A DNA stretch of 64,000 nt from Schmidtea polychroa (taxonomy: Eukaryota): positions 27,964,001 to 28,028,000 of the forward strand of contig CM097885.1 of NCBI GenBank assembly GCA_044892525.1, read 5' to 3'. The notes beneath the pieces are model-generated. The model was not told the origin of the DNA. It saw only the letters and a list, made by a program, of their open reading frames with translations, and ran no database searches. This document shows positions 452 through 42,297 of the stretch, piece after piece. Position numbers and translations under genes: made by a program. Within the stretch, counting starts at the first letter, position 1; every line of letters begins with the position of its first letter.

Positions 452-1474
452 CTATCATCCTAGTCTCTATACGGCTAATGCAATTTCTCTCTAAGCGAGC
501 CCAAACCCAAAAATTAGTATAAATAAAAATAATATGCAATCACACTTTATTGTTAAATCAGATTTTTTATAACTTTTATTTTTTCGAGTTTTAAGTAAAT
601 TTTTGGAATGTGAGGCAATCCGTGACATAAAAATCCTTTATATTTTATATAACATGTTCCTGTTAGGGGTTACATTGCTGGTAAAAATATTTAGTCTTAA
701 TATGGAATTCGAGTAGCATTATCACCATGATCATTCCCCCGTTTGACCTATACCTAAGCCGTTTTTCAAATTCAAATTTAATAGTTAATTGATACTTCTT
801 TAATTTCGCATTCTTCGGCATTCCGTTTTCAATATAACCATTTTTTGATTGTTTCCAAGATTATTATTTTTTAAGATAAACTAATTTACCAAGCCCAAGA
901 TCTCAATAAGAATTAAATTACCTTTTATTTATAATTTTTATAACTATGATTTATTTTTCAACATCACCTTTCAAAAAATGTAAATATAAATAACTAATTA
1001 TAATTACTTATCTCTCTCCTGAGGTCTACTTACTTATTAACTATAAATACGTATAATCCTATAATCTCATAAATTACAATGTTCAAAGCACCAAGCGTGC
1101 CTCTCCTTTAATTTCTAGATGCAACGGATCACATAGCAGCATCACATATGGAAACAACTCAACTTCAACTATCTGTAAATATCTTAACAATCAACATACC
1201 CGTCTAGCAATCAGAATCAAATGGCCGGATATCCACGTTTAAAATCAAAATTTCTTACCAATATACCTAATCTGCCCTACCGAATGGGTCTCTTCTTCAG
1301 ATACCACACAACCGGATGTCTATATCTGGAGTCTTTCGTTTTATTTTATTTCCTGATTGTTTGTATTGTATAAGCATGTGTATTTGTAGGGATATGTTGT
1401 GCCCGTTTAGTTGCATTTGACTTAATAAGGCATAAGTATCTGATACTTCTGTATATTATACTTTTTAACATTTC

Positions 1475-1640
1475 ATACTACTCCTTCATACTACTCCTTA
1501 CCCTTCACAGTACTACTTACCTTTCATATTACTACTACATTTTACTCCTACTACTTCTTACCCCTCCTATCACTCCTTACCCCTCCTACTACTCCTTACC
1601 TTTCGTAATACTCCTTACCCATCCCATTACTCCATACTAC
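1475..1640. repeat. CT-rich degenerate minisatellite (TACTACTCCTTACCC-like); mirror at ~29751-29916
   Basis: Repeated tactactccttacc(c) units visible directly. Confidence 0.8.
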
Positions 1641-2205
1641 TTGTTGTGGATTTTCCTTTCATCCACGCACTTTGTTACTTCATGTTTCTAGTAAGTAAGA
1701 AATACGGTACATCGCCTGTTTTAGTGTGCCCTAAAACTATTTTATACAGTAAATACACGGGATAGACGAAGCTACACAATATTTAGTGCAACTTTAACAC
1801 AATTAACCTGTCTGTTTCTTCATTTTCATTATATTTTTTCATACATTTAACATCTTACATTAAAATACTTTCTATCAAAACGGGGGCACCTCGCGACATC
1901 CCTGATTATCTATGTCCCATTTAAAAATAAGCAGTAATTTTATAAATTTAAATATTTTAAATATTTATATAAAATGTAAATATAAATAAATAATTATAAT
2001 TACTTATCTTTCTCTCCTGTTTCAATATTAAATATTTAGAAAAGTAGAAAATAATAATAATAATCCTGAATATTAATTGTTTATTTTGAGTAACAAATGA
2101 AATATATCAAATCTAATATATAAATAAATGTTTCAATTGGTTACTCATCCGTGGACCGTCCGTCAACTCATCTCATTGGTTGGCAAAAATTCCATATAGA
2201 AATAT

Positions 2206-3003
2206 TTAATTCAAATATTTTGACATATATTTCAGAGGATTAACAACAAGTTTGATATTTTCTAATGAAATGTTATATTGCTCCATATTATCGGGAATAT
2301 CCTTTATTGGGAACCATTTTATCACTTGAATCTCATTGTCCACTAATGGCTGTAAAAATGTGTCTTTTCTGAAATTGCGAATCACATAGTATCTACTGAG
2401 TAAACTGTATTGAACATGATCAAAATATAAATCTTCATCTACAACATTAGAAAGGTCTATTCCAACTTCTTCGTAGATTTCTCGGATTACTGTGTCCAAT
2501 AAATGCGTATCGGTTTCTTCTACTTTCCCACCGGGGAAAATATAATAGTCATTATAGTGACATTTCGTAAGCAAAACGTTTTCCATATTTTCGTCAACAA
2601 TAATTGCTTTAGCTCGAGGTATAAATCTGCGATTATAATTCCATTTGTTATATTCATTGACAATGTCAATGTTGAGTGGGAGAATTTCCTGTAAATAGTA
2701 TCGAATGCCAATGACAAATCTCTTAAAATGTTGCGATGATTGTTTTTCTTTCAATTTGTTTGAATCGACATAATACCAATACATCTTCTCTAATCTCCAG
2801 AAAATCGCTGACATGCTGGTTTTACAAGACTTGACATCGGATAGAAATCTAACGAATAAATCCTCAATTATTTCATCCGAGATTTCGATGGGTTTCAGAT
2901 CGAATTTCAGAATTGAATTCGTTCTTAGAAATGAAGTCCCTGAATATCTGACCATTAGAAATTGTTTTATAAATCTTCTGATGAACTTACGCTTAAATAT
3001 CAA
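2206..3003 (-). CDS. DCP2: Dcp2-like mRNA-decapping Nudix hydrolase (Box A + Nudix), copy 1; first ATG at 2955
   Basis: IEISDEIIEDLFVRFL...IFWRLEKMYWYYVD resembles Dcp2 Box A (LDDLxxRF...FQIExAHWFYxD). FPGGKVEETDTHLLDTVIREIYEEVGIDL is a Nudix box, and NEIQVIKWFPI matches the Dcp2 xEIxxIxWF segment. The ORF track starts at TTG; the ATG gives 249 aa. Confidence 0.85.
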   Translation of the reverse strand: MIFKRKFIRRFIKQFLMVRYSGTSFLRTNSILKFDLKPIEISDEIIEDLFVRFLSDVKSCKTSMSAIFWRLEKMYWYYVDSNKLKEKQSSQHFKRFVIGIRYYLQEILPLNIDIVNEYNKWNYNRRFIPRAKAIIVDENMENVLLTKCHYNDYYIFPGGKVEETDTHLLDTVIREIYEEVGIDLSNVVDEDLYFDHVQYSLLSRYYVIRNFRKDTFLQPLVDNEIQVIKWFPIKDIPDNMEQYNISLENIKLVVNPLKYMSKYLN

Positions 3004-3203
3004 ATTTTCTGACTGATTATGTAATAATTATTTCCTGATATTTTATTTACTGAATACTTTTCCTTATTTTTTGCATTATTATCTTTATTTTTAGAATTGA
3101 AAAAGTTTTTTATTGGAAATTGTGAGGAGAAAAAATTTCCCTATAAAATAGTTCTCAAATTAATCAAAGTGCCAAAAAAGATCGATGAAAAAATTTGAAT
3201 AAA

Positions 3204-3395
3204 CCCTTTGCGCTCCGTAAAAACAAGTTACCCACCAGATCTACAATTGTTTTAATGATTTTTTGTTTATTTGATTTTCTTGAACTAAATTGCGTTTTTT
3301 AATAAAAGGTAAATATATACATACAACGAAATCTGAACCTTCCAATTACTAATTATTGGAGTGTCGAGTTAGACTCGACATAGAACCGCAAACGG
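3204..3395. mobile_element. piggyBac-like MITE (mirror copy 27996-28187)
   Basis: Imperfect TIRs CCCTTTGCGCTCC / GAACCGCAAACGG flanked by TAAA and TTAA; subterminal perfect palindrome TGTCGAGT-tag-ACTCGACA (3362-3380). Confidence 0.55.
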
Positions 3396-3867
3396 TTAAG
3401 AAAAAAGTATGCAGCCGTTGAATTTTGTTTAATTTATATAATTTTTATGCAACTTCATGGTAACTTATAATTACTGACCAAGGAAATCAATTTTGAAAAT
3501 CCTGAAATTATTCAGAAATTCATGAAATTGGTTTATCAAACGCCGAAATTTAGGAAAATAATTTTTTTTAATTTATTTTATTCAATAAAAATAAGTTTTT
3601 TTATTTATCTAATATGATGTAAATATTTTCAGTTACTTATTTGTCTGGCCTGATTCCTATGTTATTTTATTTTGTGTCATTGTTTATTATTTATCCCTAT
3701 GATATATTTGTACTGTTTGACACAATTGTAGCACATTTATTGACTAGTTGTAATGAAAAAATTCTTCTACTGGATTGTTACTTAATCTTACACTATTTCT
3801 TAATTGAATTTGCTATAATCAGAAAACTGTGAACAGTGCTCGATGGATACACACAGACACTTGTGGC

Positions 3868-4510
3868 CAGGCCTCGGAAGAGGGGTGGGGGGTCAGGAGG
3901 GTCTTTTGACATGGGCCTCTTAATTTAGCGTGCCCCCAAACAGCACTATTTTGATACTACACCAAACAATCAACGAGTTTATTTTGCACTTTTACGTATG
4001 GAATAAATAGTTTTCTTAACATAAAATCTAATTTAACTATAGAAGGCCTTATCTTTGGTGTAATTTTCACTTTCCTCAGATTTTCATTTTTTACTGCACT
4101 TGCACAAATAACTGCCGATATGATTTCAAAATCTTAGAGAAAAAATGATTACAGAATATTTGGCTTTGAGCTATTACATGAGTTCAAATTATTATATAAA
4201 AGTTTATTAGTAGCTAAAAGTTTAATTATAATTAAATTATAATGTTAAAAGTGTTGTTTGTGTTTTAATATTTTTAATAATTGAACTCTATAATTGGATT
4301 TTTTTTAAACTATATACATAAAATTGGGAAAACGGGTAATTTTTTTTGTTTAGCTTTGATTATTGATAATAAATAAAAATAAATAAACTATGGCGGTAAT
4401 TAAAACATGAAGAGGACCTATGGAAGTGGTGCTAGCAAAAGACAAAACAAAAATTTAGGGGCCACATACGATGTCAGACCTGGGCCTCCAAGTGTCTCTA
4501 ACAGGCTCTG
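3868..4510. mobile_element. Non-autonomous hAT-like MITE
   Basis: Perfect 8-bp TSD CTTGTGGC (3860-3867, 4511-4518); CAG...CTG termini with imperfect TIRs. A truncated mirror copy lies at ~27134-27514. Confidence 0.7.
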
Positions 4511-5215: not shown

Positions 5216-5575
5216 GAATTTTCCATTGTCTAGTTATTTATAAGAAAAAAATTATCTAACTAGAAAATTTTTAATATTTTAGAAATACCTTTAACTGCTG
5301 ACTCTTTTAAATGAAAATCTGCTTTAGGAAAAATTAATTTTCTATTTTTTCCCCATTGTTGATCCGAGATTCAAGAATTTTTTAATAATTTTTATATCAC
5401 CAGCAATTTTTATCAGTTTGTTCTTCTCAAATTTTGTATAGTTTGCAATTTTTGCTGACAATATAAATTCTCTCAAACATTCTCTTCGTGGCGAAATGTA
5501 AAAGATAAAGTTGCACCCAAAAAACTGTTTATTTATTAAAAAAACTAATAATAATTATGAAAAATAATTTCAATA

Positions 5576-6420
5576 CAGTCGATTCCGCTTAATTGGGACA
5601 CATCGGGACTTGGGCATTTTGTCCTAATTGAGCGCCTGTCCCAATTAAGCGAATTTCACATTTTTTAAATTCATTGATTTGGTTTTGGCAACTAAGGCCA
5701 TTTACCAGTAATAAACACATAAAATTAAACAATGCATATTTTTTCCAATAATTTTATTTTATAAACTCTTGGAAACTGTAAATTACATATAGGTAATATA
5801 AATTATCATATAAATTACAAATAAACTTTTAAGAAAAAAAAATTTCCTAATTAAAATAGTAAATGGGTAGGTACATACAATTTAATTCAATGCAAAAATG
5901 AGTCAAGTGTAGCCTGTCTTTTGTTTTTGTAACATTTCACTTGTACAAAATCAGTACAGATATTCAGTGCGGATGTAGGGCTCCCTTCATTTCCTTCCTG
6001 CATAAAATAACGCTGAAACACGGCAATACATTTTTTTGCCTCCTGGTTAGTCACAGGTACAGGTGACTCATCATCATCATCATCTTCTTCGTTTAAATTT
6101 TCATATTTTGAATTAATACCTTCTACAATTGAATCTACTGTTTTCGGTTTCAATGATCGGTAAATTTGATCTAGTTGCTTTTTTGTCTTTGACTCGAATT
6201 TATCCAATAATTTATCCGCGCCAATCAGCTGTGAGACAACCCATCATATCAAATTTTTAGTACATATTTTAATATGTACTGTGATCTTAAATTTACTGTC
6301 TCAATTAAGCGGAATGTTGTCCAAATTAAACATATAAATTTGCTATTGATTTCTTAGTTTGGTTTCGGTTCTTCGAGATTTGTCCCAATAAAGCGGTGTC
6401 CCCATTAAGGGAATCGACTG
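5576..6420 (-). mobile_element. pogo/Tigger-type DNA transposon, internal-deletion derivative
   Basis: TIRs CAGTCGATTCCGCTTAATTGGGACAC / GTGTCCCCATTAAGGGAATCGACTG, TA duplication (5574-5575, 6421-6422), repeated subterminal (C)CAATTAAGCG motifs. Confidence 0.9.
5887..6134 (-). pseudogene. C-terminal fragment of Tigger/pogo (TIGD-like) transposase
   Basis: Acidic tract EEDDDDDES followed by VTNQEAKKCI and C-terminal KRQATLDSFLH, typical of the Tigger/CENP-B-family tail; catalytic domain absent. Confidence 0.7.
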
Positions 6421-6446
6421 TATTATTATCTCATGTTGGCCAAAAC

Positions 6447-9400
6447 CAGTGGCGTACTAAGGATTTCTGGGGCCATTGTGCAGATTTTGGGACGCACAAA
6501 ATATTTGTCGAACGAAGTGATCCGAGGAACCAAACCATAGGCAGGCTTGGGGGAAGGTGATTAGCAACTCTCTGAGTAAATTTGCGCATTTTAAAACAGA
6601 AATAGTAGCGTTTCGGGTTGGGTTGAAAGGATATTTTGTTACTTCTCGGTATTCTCTGTATATAGAATGGGCACATGCCAGGTACCATCATGATATAATG
6701 AACAATAATTGTTGTTATTGTCACTAATTTATTGAAACATAATTCTTAGAAAAAACTCAGATCATACGCTTATTTCACCATAATATAAAATTGAATCACA
6801 TGATAAAAAGAAAGAACAAATCAAACATATGTCCTAATTTAGTTGGACACGATTCAAGTTTAAGATTTGTCAAAGGCTAAAAATCCCAAAAGTTAAAATG
6901 GCCGTTTGCGCGCCTTCTCTTGAGCAAAAATATCGACCACTTTTGAAATGTCAAGCTTTCTTGCATGTTCGTTTTCTATCGATAACATCGCTAGGTCGGT
7001 TAATCGCCCTTCAGACATGGTACTTCTTAGATAGTTTTTTATGAGCTTTAATTTGGAAAATGATCGTTCGCAGTTTGCAACAGTCACAGGCAAAGTCAAC
7101 AGCAACATGTAAGCGGTGCAGACATCACTGAATGCAGATGATAAAGCATAATAATCCACAAGTAGCAGTTGGGCAATTTCGAATATGGTTGGTTTGGTGG
7201 CTAAATTGGAATGAAAGCTTGCGCGAAATGACAACAGTTGAGCTGGAAACGAAGGCGAAATATCGGTATCGTATTCTTTAGCTAATAATTCGGCCGCTGT
7301 ATACAGTTCATCGTCGGAGGCAATCAATAATGTAGAGGGTAACAGAGCGCTAAACGTTGTAGCCAGTGAACTGAGGCTAAGAAATCGCAGTTTGATTTGT
7401 CTGCATGCTTTATCCACCGTAGCCAAAAATACGTTCAATCTGAAACGTTTCTCAATTGACGCAAGTGGATCGTCGTGACATTGTTCATCATAAAGTCGTT
7501 TTGTATTTTTTAAACGCCGGTCTTCGAAGTGATCTTTAATTTTCCAAGCTGTGGCCATGCCAGCAGCAGTGTCGCGAATAGAATCGTACTCATTTCGCAT
7601 GCGCGCTAATTTTTCATGTGATGTCTTGATCAGATCATTAGCCTTAGTCAGGTCGCACTGCGGAGATTGAAGTAATTGTGAGGTGGCATGGGTTGCTTCC
7701 AAAATCTTATTCATCATTGCAAGAATAAAAACAAACTCAAAACATTCCATCTTCTTTTTGATCATGAGTGCATTTGCTACTTCATCATTCTTCTTGCTGG
7801 TCAGAATGATCCTTGTGAGGACTTTCAAAATATCACCAAAGCGAAATCGCATGACAACGAGACAGTTATATCTTGATGACCATCTGGTAGGACACAATCT
7901 TTTCAGTGTAAGTTTCGAACCCGATTCGCATTCTAGTGACAACATAGACCACCGATGTATACTGTGACCAAAGAAAACGTAGATCTGTTCGAGAACACCA
8001 AAGAAATTCTTGACTTCAATAACGTCAGAAACAGCATCATTCAAAACAAGGTTTAAATTGTGAGCCGCGCAATGAACATAAGCAGCTTTCGGCTGCTTCG
8101 CGACTATGCGCGCCTGAACTCCCGAATAAATACCACTCATAGTAGCCGCGCCGTCATAACCTTGACCGCGCAGTTTGGTGAGTTCCAAACCATTATCTGT
8201 AATACATTTATTTACAAGAGTGTCACACAGACCGCTAGCAGATGTATCATCGACCACCAAAAAACCCATAAATGACTCACAAATTTTCAACTTCACCGGT
8301 TTGCCTGCTTGGTCTGTTTCAATACAGACGTAACGAATAACTTGACTAAGTTGGTCGATTTTACTGATATCTTGGATAGTATCCACCATAATTGAGAAAA
8401 ATGGCGCAGCTTTTACGTCTTTAAGTATGTCCTCCTTCATGCATCGAGCTACCATGGTAATCACTTCATTCTGTATGGTGGGACTGAGATACTTCACAGT
8501 ACCTTGGGGCATTCTCAAAAATGTTTCAAGGATGGGATCATACCTTGCAAGTAGGTTGATAACAGACAAGAAATTACCACAGTTTTCATTCCCGTTAGTT
8601 CCGACATCTTTTTCCCGGTGGCCTCTGAATGCCAAATTCGCCCCAGCCAACATAAGCGTGACGTTTACTATTCTGTCAATAACTTGTCTCCAGTAGCTTG
8701 CTTCCTTCCTTATGCCATCTTCAATTTCCACTGTCAATGTTCTGTTCATGCGCCACTGTTCAAGAACCATGCAACATTGTATGTGGTCGAAGGATTTTTC
8801 ATGAATATCCAGCACATATGTCAGATGACCCCAGTCCCGGAATCCTCTTACCCATGACGCATCACGATTTTTCGAAAACAGCCAACATGCGTGGCAATAT
8901 ACGCAGTCACCACTAGGCGAATAAGCTAGAGTAGTGCGTTTCAGTTTTACGCCTGCTTTATTGATTTTATTGTAAAACGATTCGGAGAAGCATCGTCCTT
9001 TCTGGCCGAGATCTCGTGGAAACGGACCAAGAGGTTGACATGGACCAAAGGAAATTATCAGCCGTTTCTGTTCATTTGACAAATGCTCTCCGAAATTTGC
9101 TTTGTCAGTGAGATGTTTTAAAGCAGTTCGTGCCTCCACAAAAGTGTCAATATTGCTCTGAGTAAAAGCTGAAGTAATTGAAGGGCCATATTTCTTATCG
9201 TCGGCGCTGTTTCCTAAATCTGGTGTCAATATTTGATCATCCGCCGTAGATTCCACAGTGTCATTCTGCTCAGTGGCGACATCTATAGCCACCGCCATCT
9301 CTGAGTTGATCAAAGCTGAATTCGATTCAGTCACCATATCTGAAGTAGTCTTCGATATCGGTTTAATATCCACGGGCTTTAGAAATTCGTAAATTTTCGG

Positions 9401-9981
9401 CATTTTAGCGGCCTTCTGTTCTCGTTCCTCACGTGCTCGTCGCTTAGCAGCCCCACTTAAATATGACTTAGACATATTTAAGGGTGTGCAGCTAATGCAA
9501 TTATATAATATTCAACTAATTATACAATTATTGTAAATTGATATACAATAAGCAATATTATTTTTATCCTTTTTACCGCATAGTAAATATCAACAAAACT
9601 CTATGACCTCTGCCATGATGTCGTTATACCGCCATTTTGAATCGAGTTGGCAAGTAAATTGGATTTGACGTTTTATTAATAAACAAGTCCTCATCACATA
9701 AAAAAAAACCAACGTCAAGTAAAGCAAATAATTTAATAGATGAATGGGTGTGACATATGTGGTTTACAACTATATCCAATATAGATTCCTAATAATATTA
9801 AATGTATAAACCGTCCAAACTGTGGTTGCTGTCTTAATAAAAACAAAACAAACGCCAAAGCGATGCTTGGTTTGATGACAATCGGGGAATTTATAATGCT
9901 CGAACGTATAAAATTTTACTAATTTTTCGTCCTGGGCCCTTGTGCCATGCACAACCTGCACAACCTATTGCTACGCCATTG
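6447..9981 (-). mobile_element. Autonomous-looking hAT transposon (Tip100/ZMYM1-like)
   Basis: TIR CAGTGGCGTA / TACGCCATTG (1 mismatch), perfect 8-bp TSD GCCAAAAC (6439-6446, 9982-9989), single intact transposase ORF. Confidence 0.95.
6893..9475 (-). CDS. hAT transposase, 860 aa (TTF-type zinc finger, DUF4371-like region, hATC dimerisation domain)
   Basis: YCHACWLF...GFRDW...HEKSFDH zinc finger; LAFRGH; catalytic D (FSIMVDTIQD), D (GQGYDGAATMSG), CAAH, PTRW, E (VTVANCERSFSKLKLIKNYLRSTM). Confidence 0.95.
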   Translation of the reverse strand: MSKSYLSGAAKRRAREEREQKAAKMPKIYEFLKPVDIKPISKTTSDMVTESNSALINSEMAVAIDVATEQNDTVESTADDQILTPDLGNSADDKKYGPSITSAFTQSNIDTFVEARTALKHLTDKANFGEHLSNEQKRLIISFGPCQPLGPFPRDLGQKGRCFSESFYNKINKAGVKLKRTTLAYSPSGDCVYCHACWLFSKNRDASWVRGFRDWGHLTYVLDIHEKSFDHIQCCMVLEQWRMNRTLTVEIEDGIRKEASYWRQVIDRIVNVTLMLAGANLAFRGHREKDVGTNGNENCGNFLSVINLLARYDPILETFLRMPQGTVKYLSPTIQNEVITMVARCMKEDILKDVKAAPFFSIMVDTIQDISKIDQLSQVIRYVCIETDQAGKPVKLKICESFMGFLVVDDTSASGLCDTLVNKCITDNGLELTKLRGQGYDGAATMSGIYSGVQARIVAKQPKAAYVHCAAHNLNLVLNDAVSDVIEVKNFFGVLEQIYVFFGHSIHRWSMLSLECESGSKLTLKRLCPTRWSSRYNCLVVMRFRFGDILKVLTRIILTSKKNDEVANALMIKKKMECFEFVFILAMMNKILEATHATSQLLQSPQCDLTKANDLIKTSHEKLARMRNEYDSIRDTAAGMATAWKIKDHFEDRRLKNTKRLYDEQCHDDPLASIEKRFRLNVFLATVDKACRQIKLRFLSLSSLATTFSALLPSTLLIASDDELYTAAELLAKEYDTDISPSFPAQLLSFRASFHSNLATKPTIFEIAQLLLVDYYALSSAFSDVCTAYMLLLTLPVTVANCERSFSKLKLIKNYLRSTMSEGRLTDLAMLSIENEHARKLDISKVVDIFAQEKARKRPF

Positions 9982-10164
9982 GCCAAAACTATCTTTATCA
10001 TTAATATTATTAATATGTCAATGTCAATCCCATGCGTTACATCAGTAGGTAGATAGTAGCGCACGGGAACAATTACCCCCCCGGGGGGGGGGGTTTGTTC
10101 CCAAATTTTTATTACGCAATTGTTCCCAACGCATTTTTTTGCTTTCAGGGATTTTTGGTCCAAA

Positions 10165-10690: not shown

Positions 10691-10694
10691 TTAT

Positions 10695-11170: not shown

Positions 11171-11414
11171 TAAAAATTTAATTACAAAAAGTTGAAGGTG
11201 TTTGAGAATTGAAATTTTTTAATGAAAATTTTAATGAAATATTTTTTAAGTAATTTTTAATGGAAATTTTTATGAATTATTTTTCAATGATAATTTTAGA
11301 TGGAAATTTTTATGAAATATTTTTCAATGATAATTTTAGATGGAAATTTTTAAGATAACTTTTAATGAAAATTTTTATGAAATATTTTTCAAAGTCAAAT
11401 TTTAATAATAATTC

Positions 11415-13517: not shown

Positions 13518-13525
13518 AATAATAA

Positions 13526-13580
<55 letters not shown>

Positions 13581-18545: not shown

Positions 18546-21500
18546 CTAGGTAAAATGTTGGTAAAATCCCGTTCACAGCTTGTTATGCAATAAACTAGTC
18601 ATGGCTTGTTATGTAATAAACTAGTTTAAATTACATATCCTTCTCACTTATATTCCACCGATTCTCAATACCCCACTAATTATTATAACTTATATTCCCC
18701 CGATTTCCACTATTTAATCATTTGTATTCCCTAGAATTTCCATTAATTATTCACTTATATTCCCCGATTCTCTATTTTCCATTAATTAATCACTAATATC
18801 CCCCCGATTTTGATTAATTATTCCCCACAAATATTTGTCTTAAAAGTTTTTTTTTTATTAAATTTATGAATTTTATGAAATAATTTTAAATAAATTAATA
18901 TACTTCCATTCTTATCAACCTTCATGTTATCCATGCCCATTCAATGATCCATTAATGAATTATTCTACCAATTATTTTCACCCATTTGAATTTATCATCG
19001 AGTAATTTCCTCACTTTAATGAAGATTCTTACCACCTTCATTGTTAATTTTATCAAAGTTTAAAGAATATTTCTCTTTACATTGCTTACCACTTTAGATT
19101 TTTTATCGAAATTTATGATAATTTGACTAATTCAATGAAAAATGAGTTAATTAATATATACTCTGAGTTTATCCGACAAAATATTCTGTCCCCCTATGGG
19201 TATTGCTCACAAGGGTACTACTCACATTCAACATGTCGCAAGGGTATTAGTCGTAAAGGTATTTAATGTTTTTATTTGAATGATTATTTAGGCAAATTTG
19301 TATAAGGCATTCATTGATAATTTTTAGAGTTGATGGTTTTATTCAAGTAAATTTCTATCTTTTTGTGAATTTCTATCATTTTTATGAATTTCTATCATTA
19401 TTGTGAATTTCTATTATTCTTGTGGATTTTTATCATTCTTGTGAATTTCTATCATTCTTGTGAATTTTTATCGTTTTTTGTGAATTTTTATCAATTTTGT
19501 GAATTTCTATTATTTTTGTGAATTTCTATTATTTTTGTGAATTTTTATCGTTTTTTGTGAATTTCATGTTTATTGAATGAATATTTAAAGTTAGTTCTAT
19601 GATAAATTTAATTAATTTCTTGATAATTAGTTGTATTTTATTGAATAGTTTTTAAATAAAAATTAATTTCATTGACAATTAGGTTAATAATTAAGTGATT
19701 TTTGATGATAACTTTGTAATATATTTGAATAAATAATTTTTCAATAATTTTCTAAGAATATTTACACATTGATGATCTTTAAAAAAACGTAAGCTAAGAA
19801 ACCAACTTTATCAATGACTTTAAATTTACTTGATAATTATTGTAGGATATACAGAAATTTAGTTTGCTGTTATTGCTTGAAAATGATTGGTTGAATAGCT
19901 GAAGAATTATGATCAATCAATATATATCATCTCCAGTATTTGATGGTAAATATTTGTAGAAAATTTAGTGAATTTTGATCTTTTAATGGGCTCTTATTAT
20001 TTGTCTGGTTCTATAACAATTAATTAAAAGTCATATTTTTGAAGTTCTCTGAGGATTTTAAGAGGATTGATATATATTAAAGGGCTCAAGTTGGTGAAAT
20101 GTTTAGGGAAAATAAGGGATATAATCGGATAGATGTTTAAAAGGGTAGAAATATTTGCTGAGAGATCGGATAAGATGAGATATTGTCGGTTAAATTTAAT
20201 GAGGGATGGGTTAAGATGGGAATATATCATTGTAAGGGGGATATAGTCGATTGATTTTAATGAGAGATCAGATAAGGTGGGAATATATCATTGTAAGGGA
20301 GATATAGTCGATTGAATTTAATGAGGGATGGGTTAAGATGGGAATATATGATTGTAAGGGGGATATAGTCGATTGCTTTTAATGAGGGAAGGGTTTCGAT
20401 GGGAATATATGATTTTTTTAAGGGTGATGTTGGTAAAATATCAATGTTTTTTAAGGAAATTGCAATACATTAGTCAGTTATGAATCAATAATAATTATAT
20501 CGTTTTATTAGGTTGTGATTAATCCATTGTATATTAATTTAGATTTATGGATTATTAAGTAGGGATAATGATCGATTTACTTGGTTTTGACAATGAAAAC
20601 TTTACAGATAATTGGGATTGATATCAACTTTAAATTATTTTTATCTTTATTTTGACGGAGAATGACAAAAGTTTAGAAATATGGACTTAAAACATCGACT
20701 AAATAAAATTGATCTTTATTGAAAGAAATATATCGATTGATTTTAATTAGTAATTAAATCGATTGAATATCGGTAAAATGATCATTTGAAGAAATATATT
20801 TTATTGAATGGATAAATTTAATCTTTTAATGGGACCTAGTCAGTTATATTTATTTTAAATTTCGAGTACAGTGATTAACAAAAATTTAATTATAACCGGT
20901 TTTATCATTAGATTTTATCAATTATTTAGGGTTAATGACCAAATTATTTTACATGTTTTATAATATTCGTGATAATAGGAATTAAAGTCATTTAAAGGGG
21001 ATTTTAAGCAATCTTATTAGTCTGAGGTAAATATATAACCTTTTAAGGATATTTATCGATAAAATACTAATCTTTAAAGATAGTTATTTCAGGGAAATTT
21101 GATGCTTTTTAGATGATTTTAGTGAAATATTTGTAATAATACGAATTAAGGGTTGAAATATAGTCATTTAAGGGATTTTAAGGAATCTTATTAGTTTGAG
21201 GAGAATATATGATCTTTAACAAGTATTTATCATTAAAATACCAATCTTTAAATATTGATATATTTAGGGGGAAAATGATGCTTTTTAGATGATTTTATTG
21301 GAGAATTCACTTGGATATACCAATTATTGTTATTTGAATGAATTTACTGGTTTGTTAGATGTTATCATTAGTTATCTAGTCTCTTTTGGAATTTAATGAT
21401 AATTATTTTTATTGTAGATTGCTGACTTTGATAATGATCAGCATTTTTTTTTATTTATTGGATGATTAGAATTTTTTCTTGTCCATTAATTAAATTTTTA

Positions 21501-22503
21501 TGATATTTATTTTGAATAATTTAAATTTTTACAATTATTTAATCAATTTTTACCAAGTTATTGATGCCTTGAGTTCAAATAATTTTTCATCCAATTTTTC
21601 AAGTGAAGAGTATTTGCTTTTAAAGATCAATTTGTTAGTACATAGTTGTTGGTTCTAGGTAGTTGGTTGTTAGTACTTGGTACTTGGTAGTTGGTATCTG
21701 ATTGACTTTTTAGATTTTGATAAGAAAATAGTGTATGCGATGAAGAATATTTTGTATTTAATTGCTATTATTTTTATGTGTTGTTAGATGATTGTTGGTA
21801 CTAAGTTGTTGGTATCTTGTATTTGGTAGTTGGTACAGTGTTGTTTACTGATTGTTATATAGTTGTAGGTTGATATTTGTTAATTTCTCGATGGGTTTTG
21901 ATGGTGGTTGTTAGTAGTTGTTGTTTGAAACCTAGTGGTTAGTACTTAGTAGCTAGTTAATGGGTAGGTTGTGGTTAAGTGTTACCAATACCCCTACGAC
22001 TAGTACCTTTACGACCAGTACCCTTACGACTAATACCCTTACGACCTGTACCCTTAGGGGGTCAAAACATCCTGTCGGATAAACTCAGAGTATATATAAT
22101 AAAACTGATCAACAATAAGTATTTATTGAATGCGATTTTTACTTTGCAATAATAAGTCAGTAGTTATCATTTAAAAGAAGAATGTTTTGTAAATTAGAAT
22201 TCATTAGTCTTTCATTGTAATTATTTTGAATTTCACGTGGTGATGAGTTGTGGTTTTTTGATGAAAATCATCATTTTTGTTAAATTTGAAAAGGTTTTTC
22301 TAATGATTGTAATTAAATATATTTTTGAAGATAGATAAAAAATTAATTTAAAAAGCATTTCATAAAATACAGTGAAGAATATTTAGTAGCTAGTTGTAAG
22401 TATCTGGTTGTTTGAGAGTTGGTTAGTACGTGGTATCATGTTGTAAGTATTTGTTAGCACCTAGTTAAAAAATAATCAGTAACCGATTGTTGGTAACTGT
22501 TGA

Positions 22504-22552
<49 letters not shown>

Positions 22553-25500
22553 CATTTAAATTTCCATTTAAATTTACATTATAAATTACATTTCTCAAAA
22601 AAGTTGGTGGTTATTCAATCTTTTGATAATAAATTTAAAAATTATTACTTTAATTTACTTATTTAATTTAAAATTTGAACCTTAATTTACTTTTTTTAAA
22701 AATTATTACTTTAATTTACCTAATTATTCTTTATTTCTTAATTTTACACCATAATTTACTTAACAACTAATTATAACCCTTATTTTCATATTTAACCAAT
22801 AATTTCATGTGGTCATCTGCTTGTAAGTGTTTGGTATCTAGTTGACAGTGCTTATTACTAGGTAAGTTACTTGGTTGTTAGTACTTGGTATCTAGTACCT
22901 GGTTGATGTTGGTTGTATGTACTTGGTATCTAGTTGTTAGTAACTAGTTGTAGGTAATTAATGCTTAGTAGTTGGTAACTGGTTGTTAGTACTTGGTAGT
23001 TGGTAGCTAGTTGGTTGTATGTACTTGGTATCTAGTTGTTAGTAACTAGTTGTAGGTACTTAGTAGTTGGTTGATGATGCTTAGTACCTGGTTATTGTCG
23101 GTTGTTAGTGTTTAGTATTTAGTTGTTAGTACTTGGTTGATAATGCTTAGTGTCTGGTTGTATGTACTTGGTATCTAGTTGTTAGTAACTAGTTGTAGGT
23201 ACTTAGTAGTTGGTTGATGATGCTTAGTACCTGGTTATTGTCGGTTGTTAGTGTTTAGTATTTAGTTGTTAGTACTTGGTTGATAATGCTTAGTGTCTGG
23301 TTGTATGTACTTAGTATCATGTTGTTAGTAACTAGTTGTAGGTAATTAATGCTTAGTAGTTGGTAACTGGTTGTTAGTACTTGGTAGGTGGTAGCTAGTT
23401 GGTTGTAGGTACTTAGTAGTTGGTAGCTAGTTGAGTGCTGGTTGTAGCTAGTTAATGGGTAACTGGTTGTTAGTATCTAGTTGTAGGTACTTAGTAGTTG
23501 GTTGATGATGCTTAGTACCTGGTTATTGTCGGTTGTTAGTGTTTAGTATTTAGTTGTTAGTACTTGGTTGATAATGCTTAGTGTCTGGTTGTATGTACTT
23601 GGTATCTAGTTGTTAGTAACTAGTTGTAGGTAATTAATGCTTAGTAGTTGGTAACTGGTTGTTAGTAACTAGTTGTAGGTTGATAAGGCTTAGTACCTGG
23701 TTGTTGACGGTTGTTAGTACTTGGTATCAGGTAACTGGTTGTTAGTATCTAGTTGTAGGTTGTAGGTACTTAGTAGTTGGTAATTAATGCTTAGTACCTG
23801 GTTGTTAGTATTTAGTTGTTAGTATTTAGTTGTTTGAGACCTAGTTGTTAGTATCTAGTTGTAGGTATCTGGTAACTAGTTGGTTGTTGGTACTTAGTAG
23901 GTGGTATCTGATACCTGTTTGGTTGCTTGTTTTTGGTTGTTAGTACTTGTTAGGTGGTTGTAGGTACTTAGTATCAGGTAACTAGTTGTTAGTAACTAGT
24001 TGTAGGCACTTGGTATCTGGTAATTTGTTGTAGGTACTTCGTTGTTTTTTGTTGTTAGTACATGGTTGTTGGTTGTAGGTACTTGGTATCAGGTAACTGG
24101 TTGTTAGTAACTAATTGTAAGTACTTGGTAGCAGGTATCTGGTTGTTAGTAACTAGTTGTAAGTACTTGGTAGTTGGTAGTAAGTACTTGGTTGATGTTT
24201 GTTGTAAGTACTTGGTATCTAGTACCTAGTTGGTTGTTTTTGGTTGTTAGTACTTAGTAGTTGGTTGTAGGTACTTGGTAGGTGGTAGTTAGTTGTTAGT
24301 ACTTGGTACCTAGTTGGTTGCATGTTTTTGGTTGTTGGTACTTGGTATCAGGTAACTGGTTGTAGGTATCTGGTTGGTAATACATGTTCGTAAGTTACTG
24401 GTTGTTGGTACTAAGTTGTTGATTTGTTGTTGAATTATTATTAAAATTTGTCTTTGAAAAATATTTCTTAAAAATTTCCATTAAAAATTATCATTGAAAA
24501 ATATTTCATAAAAATTTCCATTAAAAATTACCATTGAAAATTTTCATTAAAAAATTTCAATTCTCAAACACCTTCAACTTTTTGTAATTAAATTTTAAAA
24601 TCTTACTTTAATTTACTTATTACATTACTTTAATTTACTTATTTAAAAATTATTACTTTAATTTACTTATTTAAAAATTATTACTTATTTAAACTTTTTT
24701 ACCATTGATTACTTAATTTTAAAATTTGTACCATTATTTACTTTAATTTAATATTTTAGAACCTAAATTTACTTTAATTTAAAAATTTGGACCATAATTT
24801 ACTGTAATTTTAATTTTTAGAACCATAATTTACTGTAATTTAATTTTTAGGACCATTATTTTCTTTAATTTAAAAATTTGGACCATTATTTACTTTAATT
24901 GAAAAATTTGGACTATAATTTACTTTAATTTAATTTTTTAGAACCATTATTTACTGTAATTTAATTTTTAGAACCTTAATTTACTTTAATTTAATTTTTT
25001 TAGAACCATTATTTACTTTAATTGAAAAATTTGAGCCATAATTTACTTTAATTGAATAATTTACCACGTTTTTTAGTGTAGACCACCTTTTTCTCAGGAC
25101 CAAGGAGACTCACCTCACTATAGTCTGAAAAATCCTTGGCTTTTTTAGTGTAGACCACCTATTTGTATTGAAAATATCCTGAGACCTTAAATTACCATGC
25201 TTTTTAGTGTAGACCAGCTTTTTGTATTGAAAATATCCCGAGACCTTAAATTACCACGTTTTTTAGTGTAGAACACCTATTTCTCAGGACCAAGGAGACT
25301 CACCTCACTATAGCGTGATAAATCCTTGGCTTTTTTATTGATAGTAGGATTTTTGTATAGAAAAAAATTTTTTGTATTGAAAATCCCAGGACCATCGAGA
25401 CCCCCTCACTATAGTCTGAAAATTCCATGCTTTTTTAGTGAGACCGCCTTTTTGTATTGAAAAATTTTTATTTGTATTGAAAATCCCAGGACCATCGTTT

Positions 25501-25832
25501 TTGTATTGAAAAAATTTTATTTGTATTGAAAATCCCAGGATCATCGAGACCCCCTCACTATAGTCTGAAAATTCCATGCTTTTTTAGTGGTAGTCGGATT
25601 TTTGTATAGAAAAATTTTTTTTGTATTGAAAATCCCAGGACCATCGTTTTTGTATAGAAAAAATTTTTTTGTATTGAAAATCCCAGGACCATCGAGACCC
25701 CCTCACTATAGTGTGAAAAATTGCGTAATCAAAAGTTGCAGCAAAAAAATTACGGCAACAAAAAAATTACGGCAGCAGAACCCCCCCCCCCCCCCCGAGG
25801 TCATTGCTGCCGTAGGCTACTATCTACCTACT

Positions 25833-26021
25833 TACATCGTATATTACAGTATCCTTAGTGAATTGTTCTTGCAAACCTTTAAATCTATTTTCTGACATAA
25901 GTCTAAGTAATTCTAATTTTTCTGTGTTCCAAGATATACTAACCTCATACATATTATATTGGAACATCAAATTTATGCGGGAAAAGGTATCGAAATTGAG
26001 GTCAATATCAGGAAGTGCCAT
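25833..26021 (-). pseudogene. 5' part of an unknown ORF interrupted by the Maverick-like element and the hAT (continues at 9990-10037 and 6426-6446)
   Basis: Removing both insertions (keeping one TSD copy each) gives an uninterrupted frame MALPDIDLNF...KDTVIYDVTHGIDIDILIILMIKIVLANMR*. Confidence 0.5.
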
Positions 26022-27133
26022 TAGATTGCGGACTATAAAAAGGAACTAAACTGGAATGAAGGGAGTTGAAAAGTAAAGAAAGAAGTTGAGAGAAAATAAG
26101 ATAAGACAGAATTTGTAAAGAGAAGAAAACTGAAATTGTAATGAAAGGAAGAAAATAAAGCTAAAACGAAACCCAACGACAATTACGAAATTACCGGAGA
26201 AGCGATTTAAGAAGTTAAAGTTATTGGATAAATTCGAGTCAAAGACAAAAAAGCAACTAGATCAAATTTACCGATCATTGAAACCGAAAACAGTAGTTGA
26301 ACGGTTGTGAGTTCTTAGTTGTATTGAAACGTGCTATTCCTAGTGAAGGGTTGTAATAAGCAATCAATTTGTCATTATAGCAGATTTTTATTTGAGTCGC
26401 TGTAAATTGGAAATCAATTGTGTTAATCAATAAAGTTTATATTGTCTGGAACTTTTTATTGTTATTAAAGAAGGTACGCTTTGAAGTCAGATCAATAATT
26501 GACAATATTTAATTTCACCGAAAACCCCAACAATATTGAATTTATATAAGTGGCAGAACTTCAAGCTTGAGTCAAATAACTAGTCTCATTATGGGTTTGT
26601 AGAGCATTCATTTGAAGAATGAAGGACAATTGCACTAATCCAATCATTGTGATCAGACGGCGGAAAACTGATCCATGAACAAACTTCATTGATTTTAATC
26701 TCATCAAAAGACTCATAACCGTAAATTTAATTAAATATTTCTATCAAATTCTTTGCAGGAATTTTATAAATAATACCACCCCCTGTTGATTTTGACGTAA
26801 TGGTTTGATTCAATTTTGCCTTCAATACGACCTAGTTCAAAATTCAAGGTTGATTTATGGTAAATTATTCAACAGCTTGACAATCTTCGTCAATAAATTC
26901 CTCGGATGCCATCTGAAAAAAAAATTTAATTAATAGTCTTTCAGAGTTTCCATGGTTGATTTTCAAAATACCATTGATCATGTTATCATGATAATGACCC
27001 TCGAAAATCCACATTGTTTTTTCTTACTTGATTAGATAACGGGCTCTTCGTACAATTTACTAATTGCATTTGTTAGAAAGCGTATGAAAATCCAAATTTG
27101 TTGCATACTTTTTCTTTACACTTTTAACTTTAA

Positions 27134-30100
27134 ACTTTTAACATTTTAATTTAATTATAATTAAACTTTTAGCTACTAATAAACTTTTATATAATAATTT
27201 GAACCCATGTAATAGCCCAAAGCCTAATATTCTGTAATCATTTTTTCTCTAAGATTTTGAAATCATATCGGCAGTTATATGTGCAAGTGCAGCAAAAAAT
27301 GAAAATCTGAGGAAAGGTGAAAATTACACCAAAAATAAGGCCTTCTATAGTTAAATTAGATTTTATGTTAAAACTTTTTTGCCATAGGTAAAAGTGCAAA
27401 ATAACTCGTTGATCGTTTGGTGTAGTATCAAAATAGTGCTGTTTGGGGGCACGCTAAATTAAGAGGCCCATGTCAAAAGACCCTCCTGACCCCCCACCCC
27501 TCTTCCGAGGCCTGGCCACAAGTGTCTGTGTGTATCCATCGAGCACTGTTGACAGTTTTTCTGATTATCGCAAATTCAATTAAGAAATAGTGTAAGATAA
27601 AGTAACAATCCAGTAGAAGAATTTTTTCATTACAACTAGTCAATAAATGTGCTATATTTGTGTCAAACAGTACAAATATCATTATATATCATTGGGATAA
27701 ATAATAAACAATGACACAAAATAAAATAACATAGGAATCAGGCCAGACAAATAAGTAACTGAAAATATTTACATCATATTAGATAAATAAAAAAACTTAT
27801 TTTTATTGAATAAAATAAATTAAAAAAAATTATTTTCCTAAATTTCGGCGTTTGATAAACCAATTTCATGAATTTCTGAATAATTTCAGGATTTTCAAAA
27901 TTGATTTCCTTGGTCAGTAATTATAAGTTACCATGAAGTTGCATAAAAATTATATAAATTAAACAAAATTCAACGGCTGCATACTTTTTTCTTAACCGTT
28001 TGCGGTTCTATGTCGAGTCTAACTCGACACTCCAATAATTAGTAATTGGAAGGTTCAGATTTCGTTGTATGTATATATTTACCTTTTATTAAAAAACGCA
28101 ATTTAGTTCAAGAAAATCAAATAAACAAAAAATCATTAAAACAATTGTAGATCTGGTGGGTAACTTGTTTTTACGGAGCGCAAAGGGTTTATTCAAATTT
28201 TTTCATCGATCTTTTTTGGCACTTTGATTAATTTGAGAACTATTTTATAGGGAAATTTTTTCTCCTCACAATTTCCAATAAAAAACTTTTTCAATTCTAA
28301 AAATAAAGATAATAATGCAAAAAATAAGGAAAAGTATTCAGTAAATAAAATATCAGGAAATAATTATTACATAATCAGTCAGAAAATTTGATATTTAAGC
28401 GTAAGTTCATCAGAAGATTTATAAAACAATTTCTAATGGTCAGATATTCAGGGACTTCATTTCTAAGAACGAATTCAATTCTGAAATTCGATCTGAAACC
28501 CATCGAAATCTCGGATGAAATAATTGAGGATTTATTCGTTAGATTTCTATCCGATGTCAAGTCTTGTAAAACCAGCATGTCAGCGATTTTCTGGAGATTA
28601 GAGAAGATGTATTGGTATTATGTCGATTCAAACAAATTGAAAGAAAAACAATCATCGCAACATTTTAAGAGATTTGTCATTGGCATTCGATACTATTTAC
28701 AGGAAATTCTCCCACTCAACATTGACATTGTCAATGAATATAACAAATGGAATTATAATCGCAGATTTATACCTCGAGCTAAAGCAATTATTGTTGACGA
28801 AAATATGGAAAACGTTTTGCTTACGAAATGTCACTATAATGACTATTATATTTTCCCCGGTGGGAAAGTAGAAGAAACCGATACGCATTTATTGGACACA
28901 GTAATCCGAGAAATCTACGAAGAAGTTGGAATAGACCTTTCTAATGTTGTAGATGAAGATTTATATTTTGATCATGTTCAATACAGTTTACTCAGTAGAT
29001 ACTATGTGATTCGCAATTTCAGAAAAGACACATTTTTACAGCCATTAATGGACAATGAGATTCAAGTGATAAAATGGTTCCCAATAAAGGATATTCCCGA
29101 TAATATGGAGCAATATAACATTTCATTAGAAAATATCAAACTTGTTGTTAATCCTCTGAAATATATGTCAAAATATTTGAATTAAATATTTCTATATGGA
29201 ATTTATGCCAACCAATGAGATGAGTTGACGGACGGTCCACGGATGAGTAACCAATTGAAACATTTATTTATATATTAGATTTGATATATTTCATTTGTTA
29301 CTCAAAATAAACAATTAATATTCAGGATTATTATTATTATTTTCTACTTTTCTAAATATTTAATATTGAAACAGGAGAGAAAGATAAGTAATTATAATTA
29401 GTTATTTATATTAACATTTTATATAAATATTTAAAATATTTAAATTTATAAAATTACTGCTTATTTTTAAATGGGACATAGATAATCAGGGATGTCGCGA
29501 GGTGCCCCCGTTTTGATAGAAATTATTTTAATGTAAGATGTTAAATGTGTGAAAAAATATAATGAAAATGAAGAAACAGACAGCTTAATTGTGTTAAAGT
29601 TGCACTAAATATTGTGTAGCTTCGTCTATCCCGTGTATTTACTGTATAAAATAGTTTTAGGGCACACTAAAACAGGCGATGTACCGTATTTCTTACTTAC
29701 TAGAAACATGAAGTAACAAAGTGCGTGGATGAAAGGAAAATCCACAACAAGTAGTATGGAGTAATGGGATGGGTAAGGAGTATTACGAAAGGTAAGGAGT
29801 AGTAGGAGGGGTAAGGAGTGATAGGAGGGGTAAGAAGTAGTAGGAGTAAAATGTAGTAGTAATATGAAAGGTAAGTAGTACTGTGAAGGGTAAGGAGTAG
29901 TATGAAGGAGTAGTATGAAATGTTAAAAAGTATAATATACAGAAGTATCAGATACTTATGCCTTATTAAGTCAAATGCAACTAAACGGGCACAACATATC
30001 CCTACAAATACACATGCTTATACAATACAAACAATCAGGAAATAAAATAAAACGAAAGACTCCAGATATAGACATCCGGTTGTGTGGTATCTGAAGAAGA

Positions 30101-30939
30101 GACCCATTCGGTAGGGCAGATTAGGTATATTGGTAAGAAATTTTGATTTTAAACGTGGATATCCGGCCATTTGATTCTGATTGCTGGACGGGTATGTTGA
30201 TTGTTAAGATATTTACAGATAGTTGAAGTTGAGTTGTTTCCATATGTGATGCTGCTATGTGATCCGTTGCATCTAGAAATTAAAGGAGAGGCACGCTTGG
30301 TGCTTTGAACATTGTAATTTATGAGATTATAGGATTATACGTATTTATAGTTAATAAGTAAGTAGACCTCAGGAGAGAGATAAGTAATTATAATTAGTTA
30401 TTTATATTTACATTTTTTGAAAGGTGATGTTGAAAAATAAATCATAGTTATAAAAATTATAAATAAAAGGTAATTTAATTCTTATTGAGATCTTGGGCTT
30501 GGTAAATTAGTTTATCTTAAAAAATAATAATCTTGGAAACAATCAAAAAATGGTTATATTGAAAACGGAATGCCGAAGAATGCGAAATTAAAGAATATCA
30601 ATTAACTATTAAATTTGAATTTGAAAAACGGCTTAGGTATAGGTCAAACGGGGGAATGATCATGGAGATAATGCTACTCGAATTCCATATTAAGACTAAA
30701 TATTTTTACCAGCAATGTAACCCCTAACAGGAACATGTTATATAAAATATAAAGGATTTTTATGTCACGGATTGCCTCACATTCCAAAAATTTACTTAAA
30801 ACTCGAAAAAATAAAAGTTATAAAAAATCTGATTTAACAATAAAGTGTGATTGCATATTATTTTTATTTATACTAATTTTTGGGTTTGGACTCGCTCAGA
30901 AAGAAATTGCATTAGCCGTATAAAGGCTAGGAAGATAGT
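27134..30939. repeat. Right arm of outer inverted repeat (partner ~452-4252)
   Basis: Reverse complement of the left arm; the inner breakpoint lies inside the hAT MITE. Confidence 0.95.
28388..29185 (+). CDS. DCP2: Dcp2-like mRNA-decapping Nudix hydrolase, copy 2; first ATG at 28436
   Basis: Identical protein to copy 1 except PLVDNE to PLMDNE. Confidence 0.85.
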   Translation: MIFKRKFIRRFIKQFLMVRYSGTSFLRTNSILKFDLKPIEISDEIIEDLFVRFLSDVKSCKTSMSAIFWRLEKMYWYYVDSNKLKEKQSSQHFKRFVIGIRYYLQEILPLNIDIVNEYNKWNYNRRFIPRAKAIIVDENMENVLLTKCHYNDYYIFPGGKVEETDTHLLDTVIREIYEEVGIDLSNVVDEDLYFDHVQYSLLSRYYVIRNFRKDTFLQPLMDNEIQVIKWFPIKDIPDNMEQYNISLENIKLVVNPLKYMSKYLN

Positions 30940-35349: not shown

Positions 35350-35350
<1 letters not shown>

Positions 35351-42290: not shown

Positions 42291-42297
42291 TGATTTT

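What the first reader, a model, noticed from the sequence alone, without database searches (positions are those of the whole stretch)
452..30939. Second giant palindrome carrying twin intact Dcp2-like decapping genes
Two ~3.8-kb arms each hold an intact, outward-transcribed Dcp2-like ORF (one amino-acid difference). Without the three nested insertions the spacer would be only ~2.7 kb. Arms are nearly identical around the gene but visibly diverged at the outer edge (~452-510) and inner edge (~3680-4250). This matches arm-to-arm gene conversion preserving a gene in repeat-rich chromatin, as in sex-chromosome palindromes. Alternatively these are gene-bearing TIRs of a larger mobile element whose left end is cut by the LTR at 1-451.
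Basis: partly seen in the sequence, partly recalled or inferred. Interest (0 to 1): 0.75.

Follow-up and report, generated by a model that had tools for sequence, protein, structure and literature searches.

The report
Twin Dcp2 genes in gene-converted palindrome
Two mirror-image copies of a short mRNA-decapping gene in what is probably a flatworm genome are kept almost identical by copying between them, a clear new case of a known process rather than a mobile element.

Summary
Confirmed: arms 451-4252 and 27134-30939 are 98.7% identical, each with an intact, outward-facing 249-aa Dcp2 gene. Divergence is uneven: 0.31% in a 3.2-kb core, 4.1% at the inner edge and 12% over the outer 50 bp. Removing three TSD-bounded insertions leaves a 2,696-bp spacer. 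Public runs put the ORF at about 2-3 times background contig depth. A diverged strain differs from the window by 1-3% across the core, more than the arms differ from each other. This is the concerted-evolution signature. The mobile-element alternative is not supported: low depth, no recognisable terminus, no intact transposase in arms or empty spacer, and the inner edge cuts through an older MITE. The host is probably a flatworm, so sex chromosomes are an analogy only. The gene is a true Dcp2 from a 17-cluster family that is short and tail-less; catalytic residues are kept but the cap-loop arginine is lost. Activity is untested. The scan has reported gene-converted palindromes on other DNA. 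Verdict: new member of a known kind; the divergent Dcp2 family is the more unusual part.

The parts
451..4252 (.). Left arm of the inverted duplication (visible part; probably continues left of the LTR, outside the window)
27134..30939 (.). Right arm of the inverted duplication
   Evidence: contigs of runs X1 and X2 bridge the spacer-arm junction at 27133/27134 with no difference (table 8)
501..3697 (.). Homogenised core, left copy (10 events in 3,197 bp; none in 2344-3697)
27694..30889 (.). Homogenised core, right copy
   Evidence: X1 and X2 contigs end at 30889, where the arms begin to differ
2206..2955 (-). Dcp2 gene, left copy, 249 aa, single ORF, Val205
   Evidence: Pfam DCP2 box A + NUDIX
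28436..29185 (+). Dcp2 gene, right copy, 249 aa, Met205 (derived; not seen in 4 of 4 runs' contigs)
451..500 (.). Diverged outer edge next to the LTR (6 substitutions in 50 bp); partner 30890-30939
3698..4252 (.). Diverged inner edge (23 events in 555 bp; 8 in the 170 bp outside the MITE); partner 27134-27693
3868..4510 (.). hAT-type MITE, 643 bp, 8-bp TSD CTTGTGGC; whole on the left, cut at 4252 in the right arm, so it predates the duplication
   Evidence: high contig depth
27114..27142 (.). Short 14-bp tandem duplication across the right inner junction (templated re-start, not a transposon end)
1..450 (.). 3' end of an LTR that hides the left outer boundary; expected 4-bp TSD at 451-454
5574..6422 (.). 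Spacer insertion 1: Tc1/Tigger-like TIR element at a TA, with a CENP-B-dimerisation-like fragment (weak, E 0.004)
6447..9981 (-). Spacer insertion 2: hAT transposon, 8-bp TSD, intact 860-aa transposase ORF 6893-9475
10044..25832 (.). Spacer insertion 3: 15.8-kb palindromic Maverick-type element with no ATG ORF of 150 aa or more, AGTAG ends, 6-bp TSD; probably absent in run X5
   Evidence: table 8
25839..27133 (.). Right part of the unduplicated spacer, with short stop-interrupted frames of no identified family

Best explanation
An ordinary chromosomal inverted duplication of a host Dcp2 gene, kept near-identical by repeated arm-to-arm gene conversion. The genes most likely encode an active mRNA-decapping enzyme at doubled dose (fold and catalytic residues shown, activity and expression not).
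For: Profile 12% / 0.31% / 4.1%, far from uniform. The non-coding core is also homogenised (9 events in 2,447 bp vs 8 in the 170 non-MITE bp of the inner edge, p = 4e-6), so selection on the protein does not explain it. Run X5 (another study) differs from the window at 28 sites in three core contigs covering 1,700 bp, where the window's own arms differ at 4 (p = 1e-5). X5 core contigs lie at 113 and 163 depth against 58 for its spacer contig and a median 49 for 4 unrelated contigs; X5 shows both arms' alleles at 27599 and right-arm alleles at 27655/27657. X5's gene contig runs unbranched into 816 letters of other sequence left of 28310, where window-type sequence is barely covered, suggesting that a structural variant is shared by all its copies. 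ORF contigs lie at 2.3-3.3x (X1), 2.2-2.7x (X2) and 3.3x (X5) background depth. Protein: Pfam DCP2 + NUDIX; pLDDT 90 model whose top structural hits are Dcp2; W60, D64, K144, E159, E162, E163, E208 match yeast cap and catalytic residues.
Against: Logan contigs collapse small bubbles, so sharing of single variants between X5's arms is inferred, not seen. Contig depth is only a rough copy measure: 2-3.3x leaves room for a third copy, and the background rests on 14, 12 and 4 contigs. X5's outer-arm contigs lie at only 18-58 depth, so that part may be single or rearranged there. X1 and X2 list only left-arm alleles at 27655/27657. Seventy per cent of the inner edge is a high-copy MITE that could diverge by exchange with other copies. 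No whole genome was held, so the left extension and other copies are unseen. No RNA holder is on record.
Confidence: 0.76

Rival explanations
1. A simple, very recent inverted duplication with no conversion. The edges differ because error-prone repair synthesis clustered mutations at the junctions, or because the MITE part exchanged with other MITE copies.
For: Templated repeat at the inner junction. Several inner-edge events are small indels, and 385 of 555 bp of the inner edge are MITE. At three MITE sites the left arm carries the common family allele and the right a rarer one.
Against: The 170 non-MITE bp are equally diverged (4.7%). Strain X5, 1-3% diverged from the window, also shows multi-copy depth and both alleles at 27599, so the duplication appears older than the strain split while the core is younger. 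The core is itself patchy: 7 events in 1801-2343, none in 2344-3697.
Confidence: 0.13
2. The arms are gene-bearing terminal inverted repeats of a large mobile element (for example a rearranged Maverick or foldback element) whose left end is hidden by the LTR.
For: The genome holds many palindromic Maverick-type elements (earlier notes; one lies in the spacer). The left end cannot be seen. Animal viruses encode Nudix decappers (poxvirus D9, search listing).
Against: Unique parts of the arm lie at about 2-3x background depth, while true repeats in the same stretch reach 55,000-150,000 summed depth in X1 against about 270. The right outer end runs into AT/AAT microsatellite with no AGT, CAG or CACTA-type terminus (terminus motifs recalled). 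There is no transposase or viral ORF in the arms or empty spacer. The protein has both Dcp2 domains and 16 cellular-type relatives.
Confidence: 0.05
3. An assembly artefact: two haplotypes of one locus, or a chimeric fold-back read, joined in inverted orientation.
For: Planarian-type genomes are described as hard to assemble and heterozygous (PMC11410931, passage). X1 and X2 spacer contigs lie below background (0.55-0.81x). No contig spans both arms.
Against: An allele pair would give about 1x background depth; the ORF gives 2.2-3.3x in three runs. The right inner junction is bridged without differences in X1 and X2, and X2 also holds a contig with the left-arm alleles and the 8-bp indel. A fold-back read would not give 4-12% diverged edges or different flanks.
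Confidence: 0.05

Closest known systems
Drosophila Hsp70Aa/Ab, Hsp70Ba/Bb and Amy-p/Amy-d palindromic gene pairs (PMC3924832; Hsp70 section read, amylase passages)
   Same: Small, mirror-image gene pairs (Hsp70 on the autosome 3R) whose paralogues within a lineage are more alike than orthologues between lineages; flanks escape conversion.
   Different: Here the tract covers 2.4 kb of non-coding flank as well as the ORF (amylase conversion is reported as confined to coding sequence); the spacer has grown from 2.7 to 22.9 kb by insertions; the gene is a decapping enzyme.
Primate Y/X palindromes (PMC3403216, passages)
   Same: Arm-to-arm identity above ortholog identity (there 0.02% vs 1.44%; here about 0.2% vs 1.6% over the same 1,700 bp), with an unduplicated spacer.
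   Different: Visible arms are 3.8 kb, not 73-344 kb on average. No sign of a sex chromosome; the host is probably a hermaphroditic flatworm.
Eukaryotic Dcp2 (S. cerevisiae 6Y3Z, S. pombe 5J3T/5N2V, K. lactis 6AM0; Pfam PF05026 + PF00293)
   Same: Two-domain fold (Foldseek E 3.5e-17, TM about 0.7), cap-reading Trp/Asp, Nudix glutamates, Lys135 and Glu198 equivalents.
   Different: No disordered C-terminal tail. The cap-loop arginine (Sc R196 / Sp R190) is Asp here and non-basic in 17 of 17 family rows, against basic in 36 of 50 other Dcp2 rows. No aromatic at Sp Y220 / Sc Y222. Nudix start FPGGK, shared with tapeworm and fluke Dcp2.
Viral Nudix decapping enzymes (poxvirus D9/D10 type; search listing and recall)
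   Same: Short Nudix proteins that remove mRNA caps.
   Different: This protein has the Dcp2 box A domain and no close relative among 31 viral loci.

Membership tests
Gene-converted genomic palindrome | Two long inverted arms around an unduplicated spacer | tested here: met
Gene-converted genomic palindrome | Identity in tracts, dropping at boundaries, beyond chance and beyond coding constraint | tested here: met
Gene-converted genomic palindrome | Arm-to-arm divergence lower than divergence between orthologous arms of two lineages | tested here: met
   4 vs 28 differences over 1,700 bp against run X5; rests on collapsed contigs
Gene-converted genomic palindrome | Both arms present and phased in the second lineage; polymorphisms shared between arms | tested here: inconclusive
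   Depth, both alleles at 27599 and an unbranched structural variant point that way; contigs drop small variants
Sex-chromosome ampliconic palindrome | Location on a sex-limited or non-recombining chromosome | not testable with these tools
   No genome held; a flatworm host makes a sex chromosome unlikely
TIR/foldback or Maverick-type mobile element | Defined termini with a target-site duplication | tested here: inconclusive
   The right end has no recognisable terminus; the left end is hidden by the LTR
TIR/foldback or Maverick-type mobile element | Many dispersed copies | tested here: not met
   About 2-3x background depth in 3 runs
TIR/foldback or Maverick-type mobile element | Own transposase, integrase or polymerase, or the ends of an autonomous partner | tested here: not met
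Dcp2 | Box A regulatory domain followed by a Nudix domain, Dcp2 fold | tested here: met
Dcp2 | Cap-reading W43/D47 and three Mg-binding Nudix glutamates (PMC6900585, passages) | tested here: met
   W60, D64, E159, E162, E163; also K144, E208
Dcp2 | Basic cap-loop pair R190/K191 and first-base aromatic Y220 (conserved, not universal) | tested here: not met
   D206/N207; no aromatic in 228-240. 14 of 50 other Dcp2 rows also lack a basic residue at 206, so this marks a variant, not exclusion
Dcp2 | m7GDP release from capped RNA; Dcp1 binding | not testable with these tools
   needs an assay

The most novel reading that the evidence does not exclude
A flatworm lineage has a 'core-only' Dcp2 that lost the autoinhibitory tail, the cap-occluding tyrosine and the cap-loop arginine. 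It would therefore be constitutively active, or retuned to another cap such as the trimethyl cap of trans-spliced mRNAs. In this species the gene is held at double dose in a palindrome whose conversion is strong enough to copy a roughly 0.8-kb structural variant from arm to arm, and which keeps working in an animal without sex chromosomes despite 20 kb of insertions in the spacer.
Probability: 0.12. Interest if true: 0.6.

Novelty: new member of a known kind. Interest (0 to 1): 0.3.

Why it matters
The palindrome adds a clean, small, datable example of arm-to-arm conversion in a probable hermaphrodite, with insertions that mark where conversion stops and a strain-specific 15.8-kb spacer insertion that would let one test how spacer length affects conversion. 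The short Dcp2 family lacks three elements that regulate or position the cap in yeast Dcp2, so it is a natural mutant for decapping enzymology. Neither point overturns current understanding.

Tried and rejected
Whole-genome copy count and left extension: no genome held. Expression: no RNA holder listed. Run X7 (RNA is a guess) has two contigs at depth 5 over 28446-29152 and none over some flanking bins; this is one run of unsure kind and is not counted as evidence. Spacer as a Maverick or host gene cassette: the 81-aa ORF 4970-5212 had no homologue among proteins of 44-142 residues, no Atlas hit and no Pfam hit below E 0.09. Four other spacer frames had none below E 0.059. Three read-through frames of 26278-26913 were translated but not searched. 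Orthology to tapeworm/fluke Dcp2: unresolved. In two quick trees the family is one side of a starred branch, but its link to those proteins is unstarred and involves long branches; no one-clade test was run. Selection on the ORF as the cause of identity: rejected, since non-coding core is as uniform. Literature: searches for planarian + dcp2 + decapping (11 papers), flatworm + dcp2 + paralog (4) and planarian + palindrom + gene conversion + paralog (1) listed nothing on this locus or family; in PMC3868585 the only Dcp2 mention is a reference. Subscription papers and supplements (none were opened) could name the gene. Earlier scan notes near this window or by sequence: none. No complex prediction was run.
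Full report
Observation. A self-comparison of the window gives one inverted match between 451-4252 and 27134-30939, at 98.74% over 3,812 columns. Each arm holds a 249-codon ORF pointing away from the centre, 2206-2955 (-) and 28436-29185 (+), which differ only at residue 205. A global alignment lists 39 arm-to-arm events: 6 in the outer 50 bp (12%, CI 4.5-24), 10 in the 3,197-bp core (0.31%, CI 0.15-0.57) and 23 in the inner 555 bp (4.1%, CI 2.6-6.2). A 1,354-bp stretch (2344-3697) has none; 0 of 200,000 uniform shuffles gave a gap that long.

Anatomy. Three spacer insertions have clean target-site duplications: a Tc1/Tigger-like element at 5574-6422, a hAT element at 6447-9981 with an intact 860-aa transposase, and a 15.8-kb palindromic element at 10044-25832 with AGTAG ends and a 6-bp duplication. 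The last has the end type of Mavericks/Polintons (motif recalled; earlier notes describe the same family in this genome). Without them the spacer is 2,696 bp. A 643-bp hAT-type MITE at 3868-4510 is whole on the left, with both copies of its 8-bp duplication, but is cut at 4252 in the right arm. It was there before the duplication, and the inner boundary is a break through it. That junction carries a 14-bp tandem repeat, as a template switch or end-joining event would leave (inference). Bases 1-450 are the 3' end of an LTR, 89% identical to the end of a 5.56-kb solo LTR at 31880-37439. Since the match between the arms stops exactly at the LTR end, the LTR most likely inserted into the left arm, which should continue outside the window (inference; no genome was held). 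The right outer end runs into AT-rich microsatellite with no recognisable transposon terminus.

Is it real, and how many copies? Four of the 15 listed runs were laid on 25840-31300. All are contigs, so depth is a rough guide only. ORF contigs lie at 614 and 894 (X1), 109 and 133 (X2) and 163 (X5). Median depths of unrelated contigs in the joints table are 270 (n=14), 50 (n=12) and 49 (n=4), so the ORF is at 2.2-3.3 times background. Spacer contigs lie at 0.55-1.2 times background. True repeats in the same stretch reach summed depths of 55,000-150,000 in X1. In X1 and X2 a contig bridges the right inner junction with no difference from the window; X2 also has a 530-letter contig carrying left-arm alleles and the 8-bp indel; and both runs' outer contigs stop at 30889, where the arms begin to differ. 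So there are two, perhaps three, real copies: neither a falsely doubled allele nor a transposon family.

Concerted evolution. Run X5 comes from another study and differs from the window by 15 of 595 and 3 of 291 letters in two spacer contigs. In three core contigs (306, 1,002 and 392 bp) it differs at 5, 11 and 12 sites, where the window's two arms differ at 0, 2 and 2 (28 vs 4 over 1,700 bp, Fisher p = 1e-5). Two further short core contigs, left out of that test, show 4 of 174 and 5 of 205 against 1 and 0. At the listed X5 core variants (27847, 27871, 27879, 28372, 28400, 28453, 28537, 28637) both window arms agree and X5 differs at full depth. X5 appears to hold both arms: depth is 113 and 163 against 58 for its spacer, both alleles occur at 27599, and right-arm alleles occur at 27655 and 27657. 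Its gene contig is 1,821 letters, of which 1,005 fit 28310-29311; the other 816 run on unbranched left of 28310, while window-type sequence just left of there is barely covered. A variant of that size should not be collapsed, so all X5 copies seem to share it. The edges (4% or more) thus look older than the strain split (1-3%), and the core (0.3%) younger. That is the test used for primate Y palindromes (PMC3403216, passages) and Drosophila Hsp70 pairs (PMC3924832, section read). Caveats: small bubbles are collapsed in these contigs, and X5's outer-arm contigs lie at only 18-58 depth. Selection on the protein is not the cause, because the non-coding core is as uniform (9 events in 2,447 bp vs 8 in the 170 non-MITE bp of the inner edge, p = 4e-6). 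X1 and X2 spacer contigs stop 33-35 letters left of 25840, inside the Maverick end, while X5's runs on for 281 letters, so X5 probably lacks that insertion and the arms were close together until recently (inference).

The gene. Pfam finds DCP2 box A (E 2.9e-7) and NUDIX (E 1e-13). The best solved relatives are yeast and human Dcp2, and the model (pLDDT 90.2) matches Dcp2 structures first (E 3.5e-17). Against S. cerevisiae Dcp2, W60/D64 equal W50/D54, K144 equals K135, E159/E162/E163 equal E149/E152/E153 and E208 equals E198. A review names the Trp/Asp pair and the Nudix glutamates as the cap-reading and metal-binding residues, R190/K191 as the cap loop and Y220 as the first-base stack (PMC6900585, passages). 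Here the loop arginine is D206, non-basic in 17 of 17 family rows but basic in 36 of 50 other Dcp2 rows. No aromatic lies at the Y220 position, and there is no C-terminal tail. In fission yeast the tail autoinhibits and Y220G relieves this (10.1101/266718, passages), so a constitutively active enzyme is conceivable but untested. Residue 205 aligns with yeast V195 and is Val in 14 of 17 family rows, so the right arm's Met is derived; all four runs show only the Val base. Three ORF variants are shared by X5 and X7; two are silent and one is Leu68Met.

Family and host. A single-sequence search found 5 relatives (one at 90%, four at 45-50%). A profile search found 17 clusters, 16 of them 231-276 aa, on contigs of 0.9-6 kb where given. 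Three have lost a catalytic glutamate, which suggests paralogues. The family forms one side of a starred branch, with the window protein and P0001 on a long stem. The best named outside hits are tapeworm and fluke Dcp2, which share the FPGGK start of the Nudix box, and the nearest Atlas cluster is 98% eukaryotic with Platyhelminthes commonest. With 30% G+C and large LTR elements, a free-living planarian is the likely host (inference). Planarian sexual strains are hermaphrodites (PMC13309565, passages), so the sex-chromosome comparison holds for mechanism only. Whether this is the main Dcp2 of the animal or an extra paralogue is unresolved. No close relative was found in viral or metagenome contigs.

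Verdict. The structure is real and best read as a gene-converted palindrome (0.76), ahead of a young duplication with error-rich edges (0.13), a mobile element (0.05) and an artefact (0.05). It works like, and meets the testable criteria of, the Hsp70/amylase and Y-palindrome class; phased proof in a second strain is lacking. My literature searches listed nothing on this locus or on the short Dcp2 family; supplements and subscription papers were not seen. The scan has recorded the same kind of structure in other genomes. New member of a known kind; interest 0.3.

Noticed in passing
window 10044-25832: 15.8-kb palindromic Maverick-type element without long ORFs, with a 6-bp TSD; probably absent in run X5, whose spacer contig runs 281 letters past 25840 while X1/X2 stop after 33-35.
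   Followed up: partly
window 26218-26296 and 6135-6213: A 79-bp piece in the right spacer is an inverted 98.7% copy of part of the Tigger-like element in the left spacer; both carry the minority family allele at 26249. It may be a locally templated insertion.
   Followed up: partly
window 28310 (run X5, contig 21): 816 letters of different sequence upstream of the gene, apparently in all X5 copies.
   Followed up: partly
window 4970-5215 (+), 5345-5554 (-), 26278-26913 (-): An 81-aa ORF and several protein-like but stop-interrupted frames in the empty spacer, with no homologue or family found; possibly a decayed gene split by the three insertions.
   Followed up: partly
window 31880-37439: 5.56-kb solo LTR with 4-bp TSD, inserted in fragments of the same Maverick-type family (31218-31864, 37561-38450); holds frames of 106-161 aa without a Pfam match where tested.
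   Followed up: partly
window 40747-57412: 16.7-kb LTR element with 1,545-bp LTRs 99.9% identical, 4-bp TSD, strong A-over-T skew, an 11 x 74-bp tandem array (50890-51706) and no ATG ORF of 150 aa or more: young but non-coding.
   Followed up: no
window 40304-40711 (-): Frame ending in a C3HC4 RING finger (Pfam E 1.8e-9), directly beside the LTR at 40747.
   Followed up: no
window 58272-59699 (-): 475-aa hAT transposase-like ORF.
   Followed up: no
window 975-1021 and 1971-2019 (and mirror copies): 49-bp direct repeats (94%) bracket a 1-kb segment with a 19-bp tandem array inside each arm, downstream of the gene.
   Followed up: no
P0182, P0183, P0184: Members of the short Dcp2 family that have lost a Nudix glutamate: possible inactive paralogues.
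   Followed up: no
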